A stretch of DNA of 43,583 nucleotides from a phage (GCA_012646105.1 GCA_012646105.1_4328.1); one strand, 5' to 3'. Shown: positions 1,076-12,162, counted from the first letter of the stretch. Numbers and translations: made by a program. Notes: generated from the sequence alone by a model not told the origin.

Positions 1076-3706
1076 TTAACTAAAACCGTTGCTGAATCCG
1101 TCGGAGAAACCGCGACCGAAAGGTGCGACGCCGTCGTATTTGTAGAAATCTGCTTCGTAGTTAACCCCGGTAATCTTAACTGTTCTGTCATCTCCCGGGT
1201 CAACTGTAGAAACAAGAATCATCTGAGCATTATGCCTTGCTTCGTTACCGAATGAAAACTCAGTTTTTAGCGCACTATTCCCTGTGTAAATTGCTTCTTG
1301 AGGCGCGGATAACATAACCACTTCTCGGTCGTGGCTTCCCTTGATAACAGAGATACTTTGCACCGAGCCGTCGCGCTTCTTGAGAATGAGTGAATGGTCA
1401 TCTCCGGGGGTAAATGTAACTGGCTGTGATAGTGTCAGGGTAAGCCCATTAACGGCAACGACATAACCATCTTGAGGTGCTACTCGCGAGCCTTTAACTA
1501 CGCTTATTGCCCGTCCTGGAAGCACAAAAACCCCTTCTTCTGTCGCCGTGAATGATACCGTAACTTTTTTCAACAAGTTCTTCTGATACCGGCGGTACGC
1601 GGCCCAATATGCTTGCCGGTAGTTGCGGATACCTTTAGAGTCATACGTTTCAGTATTAACGCCGCCCTCGGCTGGAATGCTAATAGTCTCTTTTACGTTG
1701 GTATCAGTGTCGATGTAGGAGAACTTAAGGCTATCGTATACCTGAGAGTCGTTAAATGTGCGTGTCCATTTTTCCGAAGCTGTTGTCTTGCTGCGGTGGG
1801 TGAACACCATCTCTGGCCCCATACGTGGACGTTCGAAATCCAGTAATATGTCCTGTCCTTTACGATATGGAGTGCAGAAAATAGCATCAGCTATTGTGCT
1901 GATGATATCCTGCATGGTCGTTTTATAATCGTCAAAGGTGTAGCAGAATTGTCCTGCATCAACGTTACCGAAATAGTTTTCTATCTCGGTTTGAGTTGCT
2001 AGCAATTTATCCATATTAGATGTTGTGAGGTTGAGATTCCCTACAACCGGGTCGCGGGCCAGACGGATTAAGGACTGAACCGCCTGCGTATTCGGCGTCA
2101 TTACGGTGTCAAACACACCATTACCCAGGTATTTATAAACCATCTCAGTCGCCACCATACGTAGTTGAGGCTGCTTAATCTCTGCGGCCCGAGGCGTCTG
2201 CTTACGTGCGGAGTGTACGGTAGTACGATTGCCGTAATGGGGTGTAGTGTCACGAACCTGCCCATAAAGGTTGATGTAGGAAACCTCGTCTACCACGGTA
2301 CCCTCGAAATCAAGGTCCAGGTTGGTAACACGACGGGCGCGCACCCGAACTTTAGACCTCACGGGCAAGTCGGCGTAAATAGTAACTCCAGTGTAATCCG
2401 CCGAACGCCCTGATAAAGTGGCCTGTTTCGAGTAAATATCTCCGTATGGCATGCCAGTTTCATCAAGTAGCTGATACTGAAGCTCGACAGTTACCGCCGT
2501 TCGCAATTTGCTGCCGTTATCCTTGTACATACCATTAGCGGCCGCGATGTTGGCTACTACGCGTTCAACTTCCAGGCGGTTTAAGATAGTCCAGTCGGTT
2601 AGTGTTTTTTCATAGGTGTCCACCGGCCCCACCCACGTGTCACTTCTCTGGGAAAGTGAATAGGCTGTTGAACCTAAAGCTGCCCAGTTAGACGCGCCGC
2701 CGGTGTCGACTCGCAGCTCGAAGTTATCAACATAAAGAACGCGGAAGTTGCCGTTGGTGTTTGTCACGCCCGGAACGTCGAAGTTATTGAACGACGCGGT
2801 GTCCCCTACCGATAATATTTCAGCAAAACCAGAATCCCCCGTGTCATCATACAGGTATCCAATTTTTGTAGCGGAGTCATACCTCACACGGCCAGTGTCG
2901 CTTGGGTTGACCCGAATATCGTTCTGCGCTTTAAGAACAGCACCGTCTACTTCATTAGAAGCGATAGTTATATAAAGATTCTGATTGATAGGCTCCCCTA
3001 CCAGAAGATGAGGGGTATTTGTATTGTTGGGGGATGTAAACGGCGCGTACACCGCGACAGAGGTCCCTGTAATCTCCTGTACTTTAGTATCACCGTCAGT
3101 AATGTCTTCTGCTTTGATATCAAGGTACCCGCGACCGGCGTCGTAGTATCCGTACTCAATAATGCGACCAGATTCATCGAATATCTTATACGTAGTCATG
3201 AGGTCGTTAGGGATAGTCTGGACCCTGCCGCAAATATCATACGACCGTTCATACGGACGCGGTTTATTGTTTCGGTCCGTCAGGCTGTTGTTGGGCGACT
3301 CCGCCTGCTGATTCGCTAAACTCGTTTTAGGTGTTTTCTGTGACGGAGAAATAAGTTTAGTGACAAACTTAAGTACGCCCAATGGGTCAAGCAATTTCCC
3401 GAGAAACCCACCGCCACCGCCTGCGCCTTCGATAATATGGAAAACATCATCTTCTTTCAGCGCTTCGAAGTTTTCCGTTACGTCGGTGTCCTCACCAATC
3501 TCGCCACGGTAAATACGTACTGGTACCCCGTCTGGGATGTTGGCGACAACATATTCCATAGGGGGTACGTTATGCCGTTTGTGGTCGAAAGTACCGCCTT
3601 CATTACGGGTGTAATGTATTATTAGCGCCAAAATTCTATCTCCGCATAAGTTTCGCGCAAGTCTTCCAGACGGTCTAACCGTACCTGGCGACTCGCGAGT
3701 TCGCAA
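1076..3706 (-). CDS. central tail fibre / tail-tip host-specificity protein (876 aa ORF; alternative ATG at 3559)
   Basis: six-frame ORF; size and position after minor tail genes; Gly-rich linker GGGGGF; no good RBS at either start so coupling to upstream gene likely. Confidence 0.6.
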   Translation of the reverse strand: MRTRESPGTVRPSGRLARNLCGDRILALIIHYTRNEGGTFDHKRHNVPPMEYVVANIPDGVPVRIYRGEIGEDTDVTENFEALKEDDVFHIIEGAGGGGGFLGKLLDPLGVLKFVTKLISPSQKTPKTSLANQQAESPNNSLTDRNNKPRPYERSYDICGRVQTIPNDLMTTYKIFDESGRIIEYGYYDAGRGYLDIKAEDITDGDTKVQEITGTSVAVYAPFTSPNNTNTPHLLVGEPINQNLYITIASNEVDGAVLKAQNDIRVNPSDTGRVRYDSATKIGYLYDDTGDSGFAEILSVGDTASFNNFDVPGVTNTNGNFRVLYVDNFELRVDTGGASNWAALGSTAYSLSQRSDTWVGPVDTYEKTLTDWTILNRLEVERVVANIAAANGMYKDNGSKLRTAVTVELQYQLLDETGMPYGDIYSKQATLSGRSADYTGVTIYADLPVRSKVRVRARRVTNLDLDFEGTVVDEVSYINLYGQVRDTTPHYGNRTTVHSARKQTPRAAEIKQPQLRMVATEMVYKYLGNGVFDTVMTPNTQAVQSLIRLARDPVVGNLNLTTSNMDKLLATQTEIENYFGNVDAGQFCYTFDDYKTTMQDIISTIADAIFCTPYRKGQDILLDFERPRMGPEMVFTHRSKTTASEKWTRTFNDSQVYDSLKFSYIDTDTNVKETISIPAEGGVNTETYDSKGIRNYRQAYWAAYRRYQKNLLKKVTVSFTATEEGVFVLPGRAISVVKGSRVAPQDGYVVAVNGLTLTLSQPVTFTPGDDHSLILKKRDGSVQSISVIKGSHDREVVMLSAPQEAIYTGNSALKTEFSFGNEARHNAQMILVSTVDPGDDRTVKITGVNYEADFYKYDGVAPFGRGFSDGFSNGFS

Positions 3707-5918: not shown

Positions 5919-8255
5919 TTAATACCCCGGCTGATTTCGTGTAGCCCGGCGGGACTTGGAGATTGCACTGTTGCTGTCTTGTAACGCCGCCGATACTGTT
6001 TCGCTGATGATAACACGTAACCGCCCTTCGTCGTCACGCTCTGTAACGGCAGAATCGACACGTCCGGTGGTGTTGTTGACGATTGTCACGCTGTCACCGC
6101 CTGACTTGTTGCCGTTCTCACCCATAATCTGGCGCATCTGTTCCGCGGTACGTACGCGTGACGCCCCCGCAGGCATAATAACTTCCGGCTTGTTACGTTC
6201 GGCGATAGTGGATAGCTGGCCTGCGGCTAAGTTACCGCCCTGCTCACGGGCCGAACGAATTTTGCCTATGTTTGCAAGACCCGCAGCTACCGCTGCGGCT
6301 GCCGCTACAGGCCCAAGTACCCAGCCGACAATAGGAATAGCGGACGCTGATTTATAAGCCTCAATAGCGGAGGTGTATGTGGCGATGGTGGCCTGAGCAA
6401 TGGCAAACGCTTTGTACGCAGTAGACGCTTCGCCAAGCGACGATTTAATGTTATCTGCCATCATTCCGAAAGCGTTACCTGTAGCATTGGCGCGCTTCAA
6501 AGCATACTGGTCGTTTATAGCATTAACCGCGGCCTGGTACTGTTCCTCGTTAATCAGATTCTGTTCGCGGTATCGGTCCGCAACGTCCAGTTTTTGTTGT
6601 TCCTGAATTTCCAGAAGCTCAAGCTCGGCGGCATTCTGGCCCATAATCTGTGCCATGAAGTCTTCACCTTTCTGGTTCTTCTCCTGCCGCTCTTTCTCGC
6701 GCTTAGCGAGTTCTTCCTGACGTGCGGTGTCCGCCTCTAGCATAATCTGCGTCTTGGCGTTTTCGTATTGCTGGTCGCTAAGAAGCTGATTGCCGTAAAA
6801 CTCCTGTAGCTTGGTTAACTGCTGTTCCTGGTTGGCTTCTATTTTCTGGAATACATCATCATTGAGATGAATAGACTGGTAGTAGAAATCCTCAGCGGCT
6901 TTCTTCTGGCGCTCGAATGCATCCGCAGCTTTCTTAGCGGCTTTTGCGCCAGCGCTACCATCTTCAGACCCGCCGCCGATACCAGTTACCTTAAATTTAC
7001 TAAGCCCTTCTTCCTTAGCGGCTTCTTTGTCGATGTCATATGCCGCGCGTTTAAGCGCGACGATATTTTGCTGAGCCTCCACCTGTTCGCGGAAACTTTT
7101 ACGTGTCAGGTCCGCAACATCGCGCTGAGTATCCAGTGCCATCCCCAGCTGGAAGTTAATATTTTTTGCTACGTCTACGGATTCCCCTGGTGTGAAGGCG
7201 GCCTTAACCAGCCGACCGGCATCCTGCGCCCCTTCAACCATATCCTCAAAGAAGCGCTCCATCGCGGTAAATTCTTCCGCGATGAAATCGAGCGCATCGG
7301 CGGCTGATTCCGCTATGGTTGTCGCCGTTTGTTCGCCGCTATCCGTGATACTTTTGCTACTAAAATCCCAAAGCTCATTTAGCCCGTTTATCGCATCACC
7401 AACGAAGCCAAACGCAGCGTCGAACGACATCTCTATAGCGCTTCCTACTTCTGACGCGATGTCGCCCCACATACGCATCTCAGCGGCAAGCTCACCAGAC
7501 GCTACCTGTGCGTTAAGTTCCTGGATTAAATCATCGATGTACCGGATAGGTTCAGCAAGAGCACCAACATCAAGGCTGGTAGCCAGTGTCATTTTTAACT
7601 GCGACCAAGAATCGCTTGCACTGGCTATAGCCCCGTTGAGTGTGTTGGCCTGGTCCGCCATAGCCCCCGCGAAGTTTACGTTACCAATATTGAGCAGGTA
7701 TTGCTCAATATCGGCAGCGCTCTTCTTAACCACCGTAGTAGTGCCCTGGAACGTGAATTCAACATCGTTTTTGTTCTGCTTGGCCTTGATACCAAATTCT
7801 TTAAGACGCTCGAATTCAAACGTACTGGCGTCCGCAACGGCCTCAATCATCTGATTCAGGTCTTTACCCATAGCAGCGGCGGTGTTTCCGTAGGAACGCA
7901 ACGCTTCTTCTGACGGTGTAAGACCAAGCGCCACAAGTTTACGGAATCCCTCTACCGCCTGTTCAAGGCCATACGGAGTGTCGCGCGCGAAGTCTTGCAG
8001 GATGCTTAACGCCTGTCTTGCACCCTGCGTGCTTCCGGTTAGTGTTTTCAGGCTGGCGGACATCTTGTCCAGTTGCCGTTGGGATTCTACCAGTTCCTGT
8101 GCGGCCTTGTACGCGGTAGCGGCGACGATGGAAGCGAGGCCCGCTACCGCAGCTCCGGCTACTTTTGCGGACTTGGAAAGGTTATCAAGACGGTCTGATG
8201 TAGCTTTCGCGCCTTGCTCTGATACTTTTACAACTAAACTAGCCACATCAGCCAT
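5919..8255 (-). CDS. tail length tape measure protein (778 aa)
   Basis: long alpha-helical/coiled-coil protein with Ala/Gln/Glu-rich repeats, N-terminal region typical of tape measure proteins, preceded by chaperone pair. Confidence 0.85.
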   Translation of the reverse strand: MADVASLVVKVSEQGAKATSDRLDNLSKSAKVAGAAVAGLASIVAATAYKAAQELVESQRQLDKMSASLKTLTGSTQGARQALSILQDFARDTPYGLEQAVEGFRKLVALGLTPSEEALRSYGNTAAAMGKDLNQMIEAVADASTFEFERLKEFGIKAKQNKNDVEFTFQGTTTVVKKSAADIEQYLLNIGNVNFAGAMADQANTLNGAIASASDSWSQLKMTLATSLDVGALAEPIRYIDDLIQELNAQVASGELAAEMRMWGDIASEVGSAIEMSFDAAFGFVGDAINGLNELWDFSSKSITDSGEQTATTIAESAADALDFIAEEFTAMERFFEDMVEGAQDAGRLVKAAFTPGESVDVAKNINFQLGMALDTQRDVADLTRKSFREQVEAQQNIVALKRAAYDIDKEAAKEEGLSKFKVTGIGGGSEDGSAGAKAAKKAADAFERQKKAAEDFYYQSIHLNDDVFQKIEANQEQQLTKLQEFYGNQLLSDQQYENAKTQIMLEADTARQEELAKREKERQEKNQKGEDFMAQIMGQNAAELELLEIQEQQKLDVADRYREQNLINEEQYQAAVNAINDQYALKRANATGNAFGMMADNIKSSLGEASTAYKAFAIAQATIATYTSAIEAYKSASAIPIVGWVLGPVAAAAAVAAGLANIGKIRSAREQGGNLAAGQLSTIAERNKPEVIMPAGASRVRTAEQMRQIMGENGNKSGGDSVTIVNNTTGRVDSAVTERDDEGRLRVIISETVSAALQDSNSAISKSRRATRNQPGY

Positions 8256-8607
8256 CGTTTCTACCCTCGAAAATAGCGTCTAAGCTCATGATGATGTCGG
8301 ATTCAAACATGCCTATATTCTGGCCTGAAACGGCGCTGTACGCCACTAAATCCGACCATCTTAACTGTTCGCGCGGGTACATCTTGATGCCATCATCGTC
8401 CACTCGGCGGGTGAATTTGATTTCCCTGTACTTCTCGAAGGTGGTTAATAGCTCAGGGGGGCATTCTGGCCCGGTGTCCTGCGTTGCTTCCGGCGCGTCT
8501 TGCATAACCCCCATAGCAATTAGCGCGGCTTTATGCCCGTCGGCGATACTGTCAAACTCCCGCCGTTTGTGGCGGGTTATGAAGTTCCAACGGGCAAACT
8601 GGAGCAA
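8248..8607 (-). CDS. tail assembly chaperone, second ORF (gpT-like; TTG start or -1 frameshift extension of upstream ORF)
   Basis: ORF in -1 frame relative to 8613..9029, begins at its stop codon, overlaps tape measure start by 8 nt. Confidence 0.5.
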   Translation of the reverse strand: MLQFARWNFITRHKRREFDSIADGHKAALIAMGVMQDAPEATQDTGPECPPELLTTFEKYREIKFTRRVDDDGIKMYPREQLRWSDLVAYSAVSGQNIGMFESDIIMSLDAIFEGRNDG

Positions 8608-8612
8608 CGCGT

Positions 8613-9029
8613 CTACTTTTCCTGCAATTGGCGAAGCTGTTCGTTATGGAAAACAACAACATGTTCAGCTAGACGTTTATATTGAGAGAAAAGAGTATTC
8701 AGGTTCTCTTTATTAAATTCATCGTCGAGACTCCAACCGTTAACCAGTTCAAGTGCTAACTGGCGGTTAAGGTCCGTCGCGGCGTCTTCCATCTTAATGT
8801 TGTATTCCGAGAAATCTTTCAGTTCCTCGCATTTATCACGAAGCGGTTTCAATTTACCTAATGCTGCTCGGTACGCCAGGGTAAACGCCCTCATAGCTTT
8901 AACGGCAACGTCGGCATCGGGGGAGACAACGTTAAGCCATTCTCCTGAATCGGTGCCGTCTTTCAGCGGGATTGGCATACGGGCGCCTTTTTCGGCCTCA
9001 GCTTCGTAATAAAAATCAGAAAGTTTCAT
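8613..9029 (-). CDS. tail assembly chaperone (gpG-like, 138 aa)
   Basis: acidic small protein directly upstream of the second chaperone ORF and tape measure; conserved G/GT position. Confidence 0.55.
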   Translation of the reverse strand: MKLSDFYYEAEAEKGARMPIPLKDGTDSGEWLNVVSPDADVAVKAMRAFTLAYRAALGKLKPLRDKCEELKDFSEYNIKMEDAATDLNRQLALELVNGWSLDDEFNKENLNTLFSQYKRLAEHVVVFHNEQLRQLQEK

Positions 9030-9205: not shown

Positions 9206-9397
9206 ATGACAAGCATTACTATGTTCTTCTTAATCATTATTGTTTTAGTTTATTTTATTCCGTTTCTCGTGGCGCATATGCGCAACCATAAAGCTAAATT
9301 AGCGATATTCATGGCTAATCTGTTTCTCGGTTGGGTTCTGCTGCCGTGGGTATTTATTTTAATCTGGGCGTGCAACTCGAATGTCAAAGAGAAGTGA
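9206..9397 (+). CDS. small inner-membrane protein resembling superinfection-immunity family proteins (63 aa, 2 TM)
   Basis: two hydrophobic helices; motif VAHMRNH...AIFMANLFLGWVLLPW matches my recollection of the Imm_superinfect family; opposite strand to flanking tail genes. Confidence 0.55.
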   Translation: MTSITMFFLIIIVLVYFIPFLVAHMRNHKAKLAIFMANLFLGWVLLPWVFILIWACNSNVKEK

Positions 9398-9435
9398 GCT
9401 AGTATAGGACAAATCCTAAACACGAGGAAGTAAGC

Positions 9436-10566
9436 ATGGCCCAGAAGAAAATAACCGACGAACAGTTGCAGGAAGAATTGAACGCCGGGATGAAGAATAT
9501 CGACATCGCCCGTAAATACGGCATCTCAGACCGCGTTATTCGTATTCGTAAAGCAAAACTAGCTAAGAAAGGCGTAGGCCACGGGCGTGACGTCAGTCAC
9601 CTTGTGCCAGACGGCTACAAGATTAAAGGCACGTCGTCACTGGTGGACGAGTTCGGCAACACTAAGTTGCAATGGGTTAAGACCGACACTGACGCCGAAC
9701 GTCAGGTCGAGTTGATGAAAGCCGTAATCGAGGGCATGAAGTCAGAGATTAAACCGGTTGCGCCTGTTAAAGCGGCCCGAGCCAAACGTGACGATAAACT
9801 ACTCAATCTTTACACTGTATCTGATTTCCATCTCGGTATGCTGGCCTGGGCTGACGAGAGCGGCGACGACTGGGACATGAGGATTGCGGAAGACCTGTTC
9901 TCCCTCTGGTTCGATGCGGCGTTTCAGAAAGCGCCAGATGCAGGAACAGGGGTTATTAACCTGCTGGGCGACCTTGCGCACTTCGATAGTCTGGATGCCG
10001 TTACCCCAGCGAGCGGTCATATTCTTGACGCTGACACGCGCTACCAGAAACTGGTCCGCTACATGATTCGTATGGTCCGCCGTGTTGTCGATATGGCCCT
10101 CGTTAAGCATAAAAATGTTCGCCTGCTTATCGTGCAAGGGAACCACGACGAAAGTGGAATGATTTGGTTAGCTGAGATGTTCAGTACGCTGTACGACAAT
10201 GAGCCTCGTGTGTTCGTCGATACGTCACCGGATGTTTACAAGATGGTGCAACACGGCAAAACTACGCTGTTCTTCCATCACGGGCATAAAGCACGATTCG
10301 ACGCTATTGAACCGGTTATGATTGCCAAGTTCCGCAAAGCGTTCGGCGAAAGCGAGTACAGCTACGCCCATGTAGGGCACCTGCACCATCAGAAGATTGT
10401 AGAAAGCCGTAACATGATTGTTGAACAACACCGCACATTAGCGGCAAAAGATGCCTACGCCTCCCGCGGCGGATGGATGTCGGGCCGTAGCGCAAACGTA
10501 ATTACTTATAGCGCCGAATATGGCGAGATCGCACGTTTAACGATTTCACCGGAGATGCTGGGATGA
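9436..10566 (+). CDS. N-terminal HTH fused to calcineurin-like metallophosphoesterase (376 aa)
   Basis: HTH-like segment aa 18-45; phosphoesterase motifs D130-x-H132, G178-D179, G235-N-H-D238, H281-H-G-H284, G314-H-L-H317; RBS AGGAAG upstream. Confidence 0.7.
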   Translation: MAQKKITDEQLQEELNAGMKNIDIARKYGISDRVIRIRKAKLAKKGVGHGRDVSHLVPDGYKIKGTSSLVDEFGNTKLQWVKTDTDAERQVELMKAVIEGMKSEIKPVAPVKAARAKRDDKLLNLYTVSDFHLGMLAWADESGDDWDMRIAEDLFSLWFDAAFQKAPDAGTGVINLLGDLAHFDSLDAVTPASGHILDADTRYQKLVRYMIRMVRRVVDMALVKHKNVRLLIVQGNHDESGMIWLAEMFSTLYDNEPRVFVDTSPDVYKMVQHGKTTLFFHHGHKARFDAIEPVMIAKFRKAFGESEYSYAHVGHLHHQKIVESRNMIVEQHRTLAAKDAYASRGGWMSGRSANVITYSAEYGEIARLTISPEMLG

Positions 10567-10793
10567 CTTCAAAATACAACCGCACAATGACAAACACTCA
10601 CGGAAGCACTATGACCGTAGACGTTTATGATGTGCTACGTGCCTTCGACATCCGTGACCCTGCGCTACAGCATGCATTGAAGAAACTATTGTGCATGGGC
10701 TTGCGGGGGCACAAAGACACCGGAACCGACTTAGCGGAAGCAATTGAAAGTCTGGAGAAGTTACGGGAGTACCGGAGTAACATTGATGAGTGA
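10563..10793 (+). CDS. hypothetical protein (76 aa), translationally coupled to phosphoesterase gene
   Basis: ATGA start/stop overlap with 9436..10566. Confidence 0.5.
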   Translation: MTSKYNRTMTNTHGSTMTVDVYDVLRAFDIRDPALQHALKKLLCMGLRGHKDTGTDLAEAIESLEKLREYRSNIDE

Positions 10794-10800
10794 GGCTGTA

Positions 10801-10962
10801 ATGAAAACAATATACGTAATCCGTGTATATGATGAAGAATGGGACGAGTGGGTTGATATTTATGCCGTAGGTAGTAAGGAAGAGGCCTCTAAAGAGATGG
10901 CAGAACGGAGTGACCGAGGTCAGTTAACTAACTTCTACGAAATGCCATTTAAAAGTGAGTAA
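10801..10962 (+). CDS. small acidic hypothetical protein (53 aa; alternative ATG at 10786)
   Basis: GAGG 5 nt upstream of ATG 10801; acidic stretch DEEWDEWVD; followed by terminator hairpin. Confidence 0.45.
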   Translation: MKTIYVIRVYDEEWDEWVDIYAVGSKEEASKEMAERSDRGQLTNFYEMPFKSE

Positions 10963-10989: not shown

Positions 10990-12162
10990 TTATGCGTAGG
11001 TGATACGCTGGATAACGATAGACGACTGGTACTGATTGCCTGTGGACTGCCCTTCTATACTCTGGGTTATTGATTCCGGGCCAGATATTTCTGGGGTGAC
11101 CGCCGTAAGCTCTGCGCGTTTCAGACTAAAAGACATGGCCCCATTTACCCCCGCCAGAATAGAGTTAATCTCCACCTGCTGCTCGTTGATAAACTTCTGA
11201 ATCATCACCATGTCGTACAGCTTGCCGGAGATGGAGAAGGTATTAGCCGCGCGACCACGTTCCACGAACGCAACGCTACTGTTGCCTAGTTCGAACTGAG
11301 CAGATGCGCCGTTGTCGTTGGTGATGGTCAGAGTATCGCAACGCAACGGCGTAGAACCGTCGAACACAGACACATCTACAGATGAGAACGGCTCGTCAGT
11401 GAACGTAACCCGGGAGAAGTCGGAACCTGCTGGCGGCTCGGTGAGAATTTCCTGACTCAGACCGATGAACGGGAAGCTGCCTGTCACCATCGCGTTCACG
11501 GCCTGCTCGATAGTAAAACCGGAGATTTCCACGCCTTTGGTCAACATGTACGCGCTAGGGTTCCCGCACTGTCCTTTGAACCATGTCAGGATAGAGAACG
11601 TCTTACATGCGTTACCTGTTTCCAGTTTATCCCCGGTCTTAGCCTTACTGGTTTTTGTCTCTGTCGTCAGCGTGTGCTGAATGCCAGCGCCTGTTACTAC
11701 GAGCGCCTCGACCGCGGTCACGATAAACGGTTTTGCGTTGTCGCCGGTTAAGTCGGTGAATGCAATCAGGTCGCCAACCTCTACACCGTCAGCAATGAAG
11801 CTACCGGCAGCGCGGGTGAATGTTTTACCTGCTGGAGCGACCGTAATTTCAGCACCCGTAATCTCTACCCCATCCTGCCACGTAGAAGTCATAGCACCCG
11901 CAAGGAAATCATCCTGGCTACGTGAGCTAAGTTCGATGGCGTACTCCCCGCTAACCTGTTTGTTACCGGTGCGGATGGATGTGGTTTCTCTGCTGCCGTC
12001 GAGTTCGTTGGAAGTCAGCGCATCACGGGTTACCGCGGGAACACCGCCGGTGTTACGCAACGGCGACCATACCGGGTTACTTGGTGTTACGCCCGGGGTA
12101 ACTTCCGCCACATAGAATTGCGCGGTATTCGCGCCCTTAAAAGGAGTTGTAGCCATATTCAC
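10990..12162 (-). CDS. major tail (tube) protein (390 aa)
   Basis: size, Thr/Ser/Gly-rich beta-type composition, position upstream of chaperones, terminator directly downstream. Confidence 0.6.
   Translation of the reverse strand: MNMATTPFKGANTAQFYVAEVTPGVTPSNPVWSPLRNTGGVPAVTRDALTSNELDGSRETTSIRTGNKQVSGEYAIELSSRSQDDFLAGAMTSTWQDGVEITGAEITVAPAGKTFTRAAGSFIADGVEVGDLIAFTDLTGDNAKPFIVTAVEALVVTGAGIQHTLTTETKTSKAKTGDKLETGNACKTFSILTWFKGQCGNPSAYMLTKGVEISGFTIEQAVNAMVTGSFPFIGLSQEILTEPPAGSDFSRVTFTDEPFSSVDVSVFDGSTPLRCDTLTITNDNGASAQFELGNSSVAFVERGRAANTFSISGKLYDMVMIQKFINEQQVEINSILAGVNGAMSFSLKRAELTAVTPEISGPESITQSIEGQSTGNQYQSSIVIQRITYA

What the first reader, a model, noticed from the sequence alone, without database searches (positions are those of the whole stretch)
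8600..8630. Candidate programmed -1 frameshift joining the two tail chaperone ORFs
The second chaperone ORF (8248..8607) lies in the -1 frame of the first and begins at its stop codon, with only a TTG as a possible independent start. The first ORF ends CAG-GAA-AAG-TAG, an A-rich stretch where slippage is possible though not a canonical XXXYYYZ heptamer. This matches the conserved G/GT arrangement upstream of tape measure genes in tailed phages.
Basis: partly seen in the sequence, partly recalled or inferred. Interest (0 to 1): 0.35.

Follow-up and report, generated by a model that had tools for sequence, protein, structure and literature searches.

The report
Tail chaperone G/GT -1 frameshift site
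This is the expected tail-assembly-chaperone frameshift of a Kagunavirus phage, already annotated in sister phages. Ribosomes most likely slip back one base on A_AAG just before the stop codon of the first gene, producing a G-T fusion protein; this is an ordinary feature with an unusually minimal signal.

Summary
On the minus strand, G (9029..8613, 138 aa, Pfam Phage_TAC_4) ends CAG GAA AAG TAG. The next ORF (Pfam Phage_TAC_18) lies in the -1 frame, directly upstream of the tape measure gene.

- **Conservation:** 80 unique related loci form 21 clusters below 85% nucleotide identity. Every cluster ends G with G-N-A_AAG_TA(A/G), while flanking synonymous sites vary freely.
- **Coding frame:** selection switches from the G frame to the -1 frame exactly at the stop codon.
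- **Shift window:** in some lineages the -1 frame opens only 7 nt before the stop, which pins the shift to NNA_AAG.
- **Independent start:** the window's TTG is CTG in 18 of 21 clusters (CTC in one). Several lineages have no start codon in T for 137-320 nt.
- **Related sites:** variants and distant relatives carry canonical heptamers at the same place (G_GGA_AAG, A_AAA_AAA+TAG, T_TTT_TTC).
- **RNA structure:** no conserved structure was found.

GenBank already annotates this fusion with the same junction. Examples are K1ind2 ORF21B, Shemara and Shelanagig, whose 26-nt junction is identical to the window's. The only mildly new point is the signal itself: a tetramer plus an adjacent stop, with a frozen GCGYUG box. 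No experimental proof exists.

The parts
8613..9029 (-). Gene G, a tail assembly chaperone of 138 aa and 15.9 kDa. Its stop TAG is at 8615..8613.
   Evidence: ORF list. Pfam PF08748 Phage_TAC_4, E=2e-8, above the family cut-off. phrog_15027 and phrog_313, tail assembly chaperone.
8616..8622 (-). The shift site G_GAA_AAG. The conserved core is the tetramer A_AAG (8619..8616). tRNA-Lys re-pairs from AAG to AAA.
   Evidence: Sequence. NNA_AAG is invariant in 78 of 80 unique loci and in all 21 clusters, although Lys AAG usage elsewhere in these genes is only 0.42. It is the only in-frame A_AAG in G.
8613..8615 (-). The 0-frame stop codon TAG immediately 3' of the shift site. It is a candidate stimulator of the 'shifty stop' type. 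Its TA forms the second and third bases of the first -1 frame codon, GTA.
   Evidence: The stop is TAG or TAA directly after AAG in 21 of 21 clusters, so Val is GTA in 21 of 21 against 24% usage elsewhere. L093, excluded from the clustering, is the single exception, with the stop one codon later.
8605..8610 (-). A conserved 3' box GCGYUG (GCGTTG here), 5 nt after AAG. It contains the TTG (8607..8605) that annotators use as the T start.
   Evidence: The Ala codon is GCG in 21 of 21 clusters. The Leu codon is CTG in 18, TTG in 2 and CTC in 1, while neighbouring conserved residues use 4-6 different codons. Its role is unexplained.
8248..8616 (-). The T segment, 122 codons in the -1 frame, from GTA 8616..8614 to TGA 8250..8248. 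The predicted fusion GT is join(9029..8616, 8616..8248), 260 aa and 29.8 kDa, with junction ...LQEK|VDALLQFARW...
   Evidence: Pfam PF23812 Phage_TAC_18, E=1e-18. T-frame selection starts at the first codon. The protein alignment is gapless across the junction, with K138, V139, A141 and L142 invariant. Masses.
8534..8596 (-). A stem-loop specific to this lineage, starting 19 nt after AAG. It is probably not a frameshift stimulator.
   Evidence: MFE -33.4 kcal/mol, z=-3.4. It is kept in Jerseyvirus (20 of 22 pairs) but not elsewhere: 57% of cells paired against 55% in shuffles. RNAalifold finds no consensus structure.
5919..8255 (-). Tape measure protein gene, 778 aa. Its ATG (8255..8253) overlaps the T stop (ATGGCTGA).
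   Evidence: phrog_1538, E=3e-197, and a sub-threshold Pfam TMP_3 match (35.7 bits against a 41-bit cut-off). Sequence.

Best explanation
G and T are the lambda-type tail assembly chaperone pair of a Kagunavirus (Guernseyvirinae).

Most ribosomes translate G and terminate at TAG 8615..8613. A minority slip one base backwards on the last G codon: the single E. coli-type tRNA-Lys un-pairs from AAG (8618..8616) and re-pairs with AAA (8619..8617). The next codon read is then GTA (8616..8614). Translation continues through T and yields a 260-aa G-T fusion (...QEK-VDALLQFARW...).

By analogy with lambda gpG/gpGT, G and the G part of GT coat the tape measure protein, and the T part recruits the tail tube protein.

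Shown here, by comparison only:
- the position of the shift;
- the invariance of the A_AAG-stop arrangement;
- the absence of an independent start codon in many lineages.

Inferred:
- that slippage really happens, and how efficient it is;
- whether tRNA-Lys slips in the P site while the adjacent slow stop codon sits in the A site ('shifty stop'), or in the A site next to a wobble-prone GNA-decoding tRNA (the hexanucleotide NNA_AAG mechanism). Both give the same protein.
For: 1. Gene identity and order. G matches PF08748, T matches PF23812 and the tape measure gene follows directly. phrog_15027 spans G plus T, and its position 138 aligns to both the G-frame and the T-frame lysine.

2. Junction conservation. 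80 unique loci form 21 clusters below 85% nucleotide identity, and all end G with G-N-A_AAG_TA(A/G). The run G.AAAGTA is the longest invariant stretch in a 105-nt stack. The preceding codon is GAA, GCA, GTA or GGA, so its amino acid varies while its third base is always A.

3. Synonymous freeze confined to the junction. The counts are GAA 13/13, AAG 21/21, GTA 21/21 and GCG 21/21. Nearby conserved Leu, Arg, Ala and Val residues use 4-6 different codons.

4. Depletion elsewhere. Of 82 internal AAG codons in G, only 7 are preceded by A, against about 17 expected. The terminal AAG is preceded by A in 21 of 21.

5. Frame switch exactly at the stop. For the 33 T-frame codons from stop-1, amino-acid identity is 0.61 with 0 stops, against 0.35 and 0.32 with 46-48 stops in the other two frames. 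Third-position variability is 0.43 against 0.18. Upstream of the site, the -1 frame has 12 stops in 10 codons across 21 sequences.

6. Shift window. The -1 frame opens only 7 nt before the stop in L096 and L098.

7. No conserved start. The TTG is present in only 2 of 21 clusters (CTG in 18, CTC in one). L041 and L126-L129 have no ATG, GTG or TTG in T for 137-320 nt.

8. Canonical heptamers at the same place. L078 has G_GGA_AAG. A Kistimonas prophage has A_AAA_AAA directly before TAG, again with a 7-nt window. Pseudomonas phage PMBT14 has T_TTT_TTC just upstream of its -1-frame LYQYAR motif, which resembles this family's ALYxFARW.

9. Existing annotation. Joined frameshift products are annotated in K1ind2, Shemara and Shelanagig. 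Exact-sequence look-up finds the deposited K1ind2 and Shemara fusions only for the ...EK|V... junction. Shelanagig's 26-nt junction is identical to the window's.

10. Literature. A_AAG is the most shift-prone tetramer in E. coli (PMC4066793). NNA_AAG sites are used by IS1222 and occur in B. subtilis cdd (PMC5009743). Both single-tRNA mechanisms are described in PMC10861913.
Against: - There is no experimental evidence for the fusion in this phage group.
- The site is not a canonical heptamer, and the Shashou announcement (95.5% identical over the 1.3-kb junction region) states there is 'no canonical slippery sequence'.
- Without a stimulator, tetramers gave about 0.15% frameshifting in E. coli against 0.11% background (PMC4066793). 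Some stimulator is therefore needed, and none is proven here.
- No conserved RNA structure was found.
- In this window a TTG, preceded by a weak AGGA 12 nt upstream, could start T independently.
- The 21 clusters are related by descent, so codon-usage probabilities overstate significance.
- One lineage (L093) has the stop one codon later, so strict adjacency is not absolute.
Confidence: 0.85

Rival explanations
1. T is made as a separate 13.7-kDa protein. Ribosomes initiate, or re-initiate after terminating at the G stop, at TTG 8607..8605. There is no frameshift.
For: TTG lies 5 nt after the stop, and AGGA lies upstream. The Sciku, EC3-1 and Golestan records annotate it this way. The Shashou paper sees no canonical slippery sequence.
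Against: - The codon is CTG in 18 of 21 clusters and CTC in one, so it behaves as a Leu codon and not as a start.
- The three codons before it (V-x-A) are conserved and free of stops in the T frame.
- The SD match is weak (-4.3 kcal/mol) and lies 12 nt from the TTG.
- This model does not explain the frozen A_AAG, GTA and GCG codons.
- It cannot apply to lineages with no start codon in T.
Confidence: 0.08
2. Only the C-terminal part of T is expressed, from the internal ATG at 8514 (Met35 of T). This gives the 87-88-aa protein that gene callers predict in many relatives.
For: Otaku and XY2 are annotated this way. Many database representatives are 87-88 aa and start at query residue 35.
Against: - The 34 codons upstream of that Met are under clear purifying selection in the T frame: identity 0.61, no stops and third-position variation.
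- The Met is absent in Shemara and in L126-L129.
Confidence: 0.04
3. The fusion is made by transcriptional slippage (loss of one A in the mRNA) and not by ribosomal slippage.
For: The site contains an A run. The Kistimonas relative has nine A's, which could support polymerase slippage.
Against: The run here is only four A's (GAAAAG), and three in the GCAAAG and GTAAAG lineages. From established knowledge, this is far below the roughly 7-9 needed for RNA polymerase slippage. The conserved G after the run and the conserved stop have no role in that model.
Confidence: 0.02

Closest known systems
Phage lambda gpG/gpGT (Levin, Hendrix and Casjens 1993; Xu, Hendrix and Duda 2004, 2013, 2014; summarised in PMC5009743)
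   Same: Two ORFs lie directly upstream of the tape measure gene, and the second is in the -1 frame. The slip is on ...A_AAG read by tRNA-Lys. The presumed role is a fixed, low GT:G ratio for tail assembly.
   Different: Lambda uses the canonical heptamer G_GGA_AAG, located upstream of the G stop. Here the heptamer is degenerate (G_GAA_AAG, or GCA/GTA in relatives) and abuts the stop codon. G and T show no detected sequence similarity to the lambda proteins and fall in different Pfam TAC families. A 1.9-kb opposite-strand cassette separates the tube gene from G.
Annotated GT fusions in Guernseyvirinae: K1ind2 ORF21A/21B (GU196280, ADA82419.1), Shelanagig CPT_Shelanagig_026 (MK931446), Shemara PF624_gp24 (NC_069152)
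   Same: The genes are homologous and the junction is the same (...EK|V...). Shelanagig has the identical 26-nt sequence around the site.
   Different: None in substance. However, the window's closest relatives (Sciku, Shashou, EC3-1, Golestan) annotate two separate genes.
Tetra- and hexanucleotide -1 sites Z_ZZN / NNA_AAG: IS3 A_AAG, IS1222 G_CGA_AAG, B. subtilis cdd A_CGA_AAG (PMC4066793, PMC5009743)
   Same: The core is A_AAG, with a preceding codon ending in A that is read by a wobble-prone tRNA. The P-site tRNA does not need full re-pairing.
   Different: Those cases rely on a pseudoknot, a stem-loop or an upstream SD-like stimulator. Here none is conserved. The only conserved neighbours are the adjacent stop and a GCGYUG box.
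'Shifty stop' frameshifting (Weiss et al. 1987; the prfB +1 site, with a stop in the A site)
   Same: A slow-to-decode stop codon lies immediately 3' of a slippery codon. Peptidyl-tRNA in the P site could slip while the A site is empty.
   Different: The direction is -1 and not +1. The role of the stop here is inferred only from its conservation (all 21 clusters, 21 of the 22 lineages examined).

Membership tests
Lambda-type G/GT tail assembly chaperone pair expressed by programmed -1 frameshift | Two small ORFs between the major tail (tube) gene and the tape measure gene, on the same strand. | tested here: met
   The order on the minus strand is tube 12162..10990 (PF18906), G 9029..8613, T ..8248 and TMP 8255..5919. 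An opposite-strand cassette (9206..10962) is inserted between the tube gene and G.
Lambda-type G/GT tail assembly chaperone pair expressed by programmed -1 frameshift | The second ORF is in the -1 frame, overlaps the 3' end of the first and lacks its own conserved start. | tested here: met
   The -1 frame is open from 8643. The TTG is present in 2 of 21 clusters only, and some lineages have no start codon for 137-320 nt.
Lambda-type G/GT tail assembly chaperone pair expressed by programmed -1 frameshift | A canonical slippery heptamer X_XXY_YYZ within the overlap. | tested here: not met
   The site is G_GAA_AAG. Only the tetramer A_AAG is canonical (Z_ZZN). One relative (L078) has G_GGA_AAG, and distant relatives have A_AAA_AAA and T_TTT_TTC.
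Lambda-type G/GT tail assembly chaperone pair expressed by programmed -1 frameshift | Sequence membership in tail assembly chaperone families. | tested here: met
   G matches PF08748 (34.8 bits against a 21.1 cut-off). T matches PF23812 (67.3 bits against 27). Both match phrog_15027.
Lambda-type G/GT tail assembly chaperone pair expressed by programmed -1 frameshift | The fusion protein is made at a low fixed ratio and is required for tail assembly. | not testable with these tools
   This needs western blot, mass spectrometry and genetics. No report was found in the searched literature.
Z_ZZN / NNA_AAG single-tRNA -1 frameshift sites of bacteria | An in-frame A_AAG whose -1 codon AAA allows cognate re-pairing of tRNA-Lys. 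| tested here: met
   The site is at 8619..8616. It is invariant in 21 clusters and is the only in-frame A_AAG in G.
Z_ZZN / NNA_AAG single-tRNA -1 frameshift sites of bacteria | A flanking stimulator: a downstream structure 5-9 nt away, or an upstream SD-like sequence 10-14 nt away. | tested here: not met
   RNAalifold finds no consensus structure. The window's stem-loop starts 19 nt away and is not conserved. Pairing of the GCGYUG box is not clearly above synonymous-shuffle nulls. No conserved upstream SD was seen.
'Shifty stop' sites | A stop codon immediately 3' of the slippery codon. | tested here: met
   TAG or TAA follows AAG directly in all 21 clusters; L093, excluded from the clustering, has it one codon later, giving 21 of 22 lineages. 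Whether the stop stimulates slippage was not tested.

The most novel reading that the evidence does not exclude
The conserved 18-nt block G-N-A_AAG_UAR-NN-GCGYUG could be a compact, structure-free -1 recoding signal. In it, the 0-frame stop codon itself would be the stimulator. Peptidyl-tRNA-Lys would slip in the P site while RF1-dependent termination at UAG or UAA is slow, so the G:GT ratio would be set by competition between release factor and Val-tRNA. The frozen GCGYUG box 5 nt downstream would tune this step. That would make it a natural '-1 shifty stop' class of G/GT signal, distinct from the lambda heptamer.
Probability: 0.3. Interest if true: 0.5.

Novelty: already known. Interest (0 to 1): 0.27.

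Why it matters
Practically, it settles an annotation inconsistency. Identical junction sequences are annotated as a frameshift product in some Guernseyvirinae records (K1ind2, Shelanagig, Shemara). In others they are annotated as two genes, or a truncated 'hypothetical protein' (Sciku, Shashou, Golestan, Otaku, XY2). One paper states that no slippery sequence exists.

The comparative data argue that all of these phages make GT by slipping on A_AAG at the G stop.

For recoding biology, the family offers a clean natural test case. It has a minimal tetramer site with no conserved RNA structure, an invariably adjacent stop codon and an unexplained frozen 3' hexamer.

Tried and rejected
- **Homologue search.** The search for homologous proteins with the fused protein returned only 3 short hits and was uninformative.
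- **Natural in-frame fusions.** An HMMER search of 1.84 billion cluster representatives with T found 30 hits, all 52-165 aa. No natural in-frame G-T fusion was found.
- **Structure and family libraries.** The PDB sequence search and NCBIfam gave nothing significant.
- **Downstream stimulator.**
  - RNAalifold on 21 representatives gave no structure.
  - The window's own stem-loop (-33.4 kcal/mol, z=-3.4) starts 19 nt after the site and is kept only in the sister genus: 57% of cells paired against 55% in shuffles.
  - GCGYUG as the 5' arm of a hairpin: pairing probability against synonymous-shuffle nulls gave mean z of 0.7, 0.14 and 0.08 for 45, 63 and 93 nt. A GCGCUG:CAGCGY stem exists in only 4-5 lineages. 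This was rejected as a general explanation.
- **Upstream SD-like stimulator.** None is conserved.
- **Tandem heptamer slippage as the common mechanism.** Rejected, because P-site re-pairing is poor for the GCA and GTA lineages.
- **SS3e (AY730274).** It appears as a single-frame match but has aberrant frames, probably from sequence errors, so it was not used as evidence.
- **Structure prediction.** Not run. Only window sequences without an alignment would have been accepted, and the result would not bear on the frameshift.
- **Anany et al. 2015 (PMID 25663216).** This paper is cited in the Sciku record but is not held in the library.

Full report
**What is in the window**

The relevant genes are on the minus strand.
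- G runs 9029..8613 (138 aa) and ends CAG GAA AAG TAG, with the stop at 8615..8613.
- The -1 frame is closed by TAA at 8646..8644. It is then open from 8643 to TGA at 8250..8248.
- The first start codon in that frame is TTG at 8607..8605. The next is ATG at 8514.
- The tape measure gene (8255..5919, 778 aa) starts with an ATG that overlaps the T stop.

**What the genes are**

- G matches Pfam Phage_TAC_4 (E=2e-8).
- The -1 ORF matches Phage_TAC_18 (E=1e-18).
- Upstream lie a tail tube protein and a tail terminator.
- PHROG phrog_15027 is a 259-residue 'tail assembly chaperone' profile. G aligns to its positions 1-138 and the -1 ORF to 136-259. The lysine at position 138 is matched from both frames, so fused members already exist in that family.
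- The DNA is about 95% identical to Escherichia phages Sciku and Shashou (Kagunavirus, Guernseyvirinae). It is about 81% identical to Salmonella Jerseyviruses.

**Comparative test of the junction**

I collected related loci from IMG/VR, GenBank phages and bacterial genomes. This gave 80 unique G-T sequences. After setting aside four (error-ridden, truncated or variant: L033, L036, L077, L093), 76 were clustered, giving 21 clusters below 85% nucleotide identity over the 250 nt around the junction. G protein identity to the window falls to 43-60%.

- Every cluster ends G with G-N-A_AAG followed directly by TAG (15 clusters) or TAA (6 clusters).
- The penultimate codon is GAA, GCA, GTA or, once, GGA. 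The amino acid is therefore free, but the third base is always A.
- Synonymous variation is frozen only here. The counts are GAA 13/13, AAG 21/21 (usage elsewhere 0.42), GTA 21/21 (usage 0.24) and GCG 21/21 (usage 0.36). Conserved Leu, Arg, Ala and Val residues a few codons away use 4-6 different codons.
- Inside G, A_AAG is under-represented: 7 of 82 internal AAG codons are preceded by A, against about 17 expected.
- In the window, the terminal A_AAG is the only in-frame one in G.

These probabilities are not phylogenetically corrected. The contrast with the flanking sites is nevertheless clear.

**Where the coding frame changes**

- For the 33 T-frame codons starting at the GTA that overlaps the stop, the 21 representatives show 61% pairwise amino-acid identity and no stops. 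The other two frames show 32-35% identity and 46-48 stops.
- Third-position variability in that segment is 0.43, against 0.18 at positions 1 and 2.
- In the ten -1-frame codons just upstream of the site there are 12 stops.
- The fusion protein alignment is gapless across the junction, with L135, K138, V139, A141 and L142 invariant.
- In L096 and L098 the -1 frame opens only 7 nt before the stop (T TAA CGC AAA GTA). The shift must therefore happen on C_GCA_AAG.

**Is there an independent start?**

- The TTG of the window is present in only two clusters (Sciku-type Kagunavirus and Jerseyvirus). In 18 clusters the codon is CTG and in one CTC.
- Shemara and L126-L129 have no ATG, GTG or TTG in the T frame for 137-320 nt.
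- The AGGA upstream of the TTG is weak (-4.3 kcal/mol against the anti-SD) and lies 12 nt away.
- Gene callers commonly truncate T to the internal Met35, which yields the 87-88-aa database entries.
- No natural in-frame G-T fusion was found among 1.84 billion representatives.

**Variants that point to the same site**

- L078 differs by one base and carries the lambda heptamer G_GGA_AAG.
- L093 has AAG TTA TAG, with the stop one codon later, and keeps K-V-x-A-L-Y in the -1 frame.
- A distant relative in a Kistimonas genome ends G with CTT AAA AAA AAA TAG. Its -1 frame also opens exactly 7 nt before the stop and reads K-K-I-D-R-L-L-R-W.
- Pseudomonas phage PMBT14 (27.6% identity) has T_TTT_TTC 16 codons before its G stop, just upstream of the -1-frame segment QQRLDGLYQYARAEF, whose LYQYAR resembles this family's ALYxFARW.

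**Mechanism**

The common denominator is tRNA-Lys slipping from AAG to AAA.
- Re-pairing of the P-site tRNA would be good for G_GAA (G:U in the middle position) and for G_GGA. It would be poor for the GCA and GTA lineages. Tandem heptamer slippage is therefore not the shared mechanism.
- The literature supports the core site. A_AAG is the most efficient tetramer in E. coli but needs a stimulator: about 0.15% without one and up to 5.6% with the IS3 pseudoknot (PMC4066793).
- NNA_AAG sites work in IS1222 and in B. subtilis cdd, and depend on a wobble-prone tRNA on the 5' codon (PMC5009743).
- Two routes are described: P-site slippage next to a slowly decoded A-site codon, and A-site slippage on A_AAG (PMC10861913).

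I found no conserved RNA structure. The window's own stem-loop (8596..8534, -33.4 kcal/mol, z=-3.4) starts 19 nt after the site and is kept only in Jerseyviruses.

The only conserved neighbours are the adjacent stop and a GCGYUG box 5 nt downstream. The stop is adjacent in all 21 clusters; counting L093, which was excluded from the clustering, that is 21 of 22 lineages. The box's invariance is not explained by pairing. I therefore favour, weakly, a stop-stimulated P-site slip over an A-site slip. The two give the same protein and cannot be separated computationally.

**What is already known**

- GenBank annotates joined 'frameshift product' CDSs for K1ind2 (ORF21A/21B), Shemara and Shelanagig.
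- Exact-sequence look-ups recovered the deposited K1ind2 and Shemara fusions only for the ...QEK|VDA... and ...MEK|VKA... junctions. Alternative junctions were absent.
- Shelanagig's junction CAATTGCAGGAAAAGTAGACGCGTTG is identical to the window's. Its announcement says it 'contains the slippery sequence' (PMC6763656).
- The Shashou announcement, from the same centre, says there is 'no canonical slippery sequence' for the same junction motif (PMC6776780).
- I found no experimental demonstration.

**Verdict**

The feature is the ordinary, already-annotated G/GT frameshift of this phage subfamily.

Two points have modest residual interest. One is the minimal signal: a tetramer plus an adjacent stop, with no conserved structure. 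The other is the unexplained frozen GCGYUG box.

Noticed in passing
window 8605..8610 (minus strand GCGTTG); same position in all related loci: The Ala-Leu codons two codons after the shift are frozen at synonymous sites. GCG occurs in 21 of 21 clusters; the Leu codon is CTG in 18, TTG in 2 and CTC in 1. Nearby conserved residues vary freely. No conserved pairing partner was found, and a GCGCUG:CAGCGY stem exists in only 4-5 lineages.
   Followed up: partly
window 8534..8596 (minus strand): A stable stem-loop lies inside the T coding region (-33.4 kcal/mol, z=-3.4). It pairs the FARW codons with the IADGH codons. It is kept in Jerseyviruses but not in other lineages, and it is too far (19 nt) from the shift site to be a classical stimulator.
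   Followed up: yes
window 9206..10962 (plus strand): An opposite-strand cassette of four ORFs sits between the tail tube gene and G. In relatives these are annotated as a T4 Imm-like superinfection immunity protein, a phosphoesterase or SbcD-like nuclease, and small hypothetical proteins. The cassette interrupts the usual tube-G-T-TMP order.
   Followed up: no
window 8248..8255: The T stop and the tape measure start overlap (ATGGCTGA). Ribosomes that have shifted into the T frame could therefore couple directly into TMP translation. TMP also has its own GAGGG Shine-Dalgarno sequence.
   Followed up: no
L078 (IMGVR_UViG_2974654489_000001), junction: This K1ind-like phage has a single A-to-G change that turns G_GAA_AAG into the canonical lambda heptamer G_GGA_AAG. 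The penultimate G residue changes from E to G.
   Followed up: partly
L132 (Kistimonas scapharcae NZ_BAABFL010000468.1), locus 1230..1260: A distant G homologue in a bacterial genome ends with nine A's directly before TAG. Its -1 frame opens exactly 7 nt before the stop. This fits either ribosomal slippage on A_AAA_AAA or transcriptional slippage.
   Followed up: partly
L131 (Taishania pollutisoli NZ_JACVEL010000023.1, 13-kb scaffold): A Jerseyvirus-like G-T locus, 93% identical to the query, sits in a Bacteroidota genome assembly. This is most likely phage contamination of the assembly and not a prophage.
   Followed up: no
GenBank records and papers PMC6763656 vs PMC6776780: Two genome announcements from the same centre reach opposite conclusions about the same junction motif (CAGGAAAAGTAG): 'contains the slippery sequence' against 'no canonical slippery sequence'. 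Annotation of T across the subfamily is inconsistent: a joined CDS, a TTG start, an internal ATG start, or no annotation at all.
   Followed up: yes
L033/L050 (Salmonella phage SS3e, AY730274.2): The G-T region of this old record matches in a single frame and has aberrant short ORFs, which suggests sequencing errors. It should not be read as a natural in-frame fusion.
   Followed up: no
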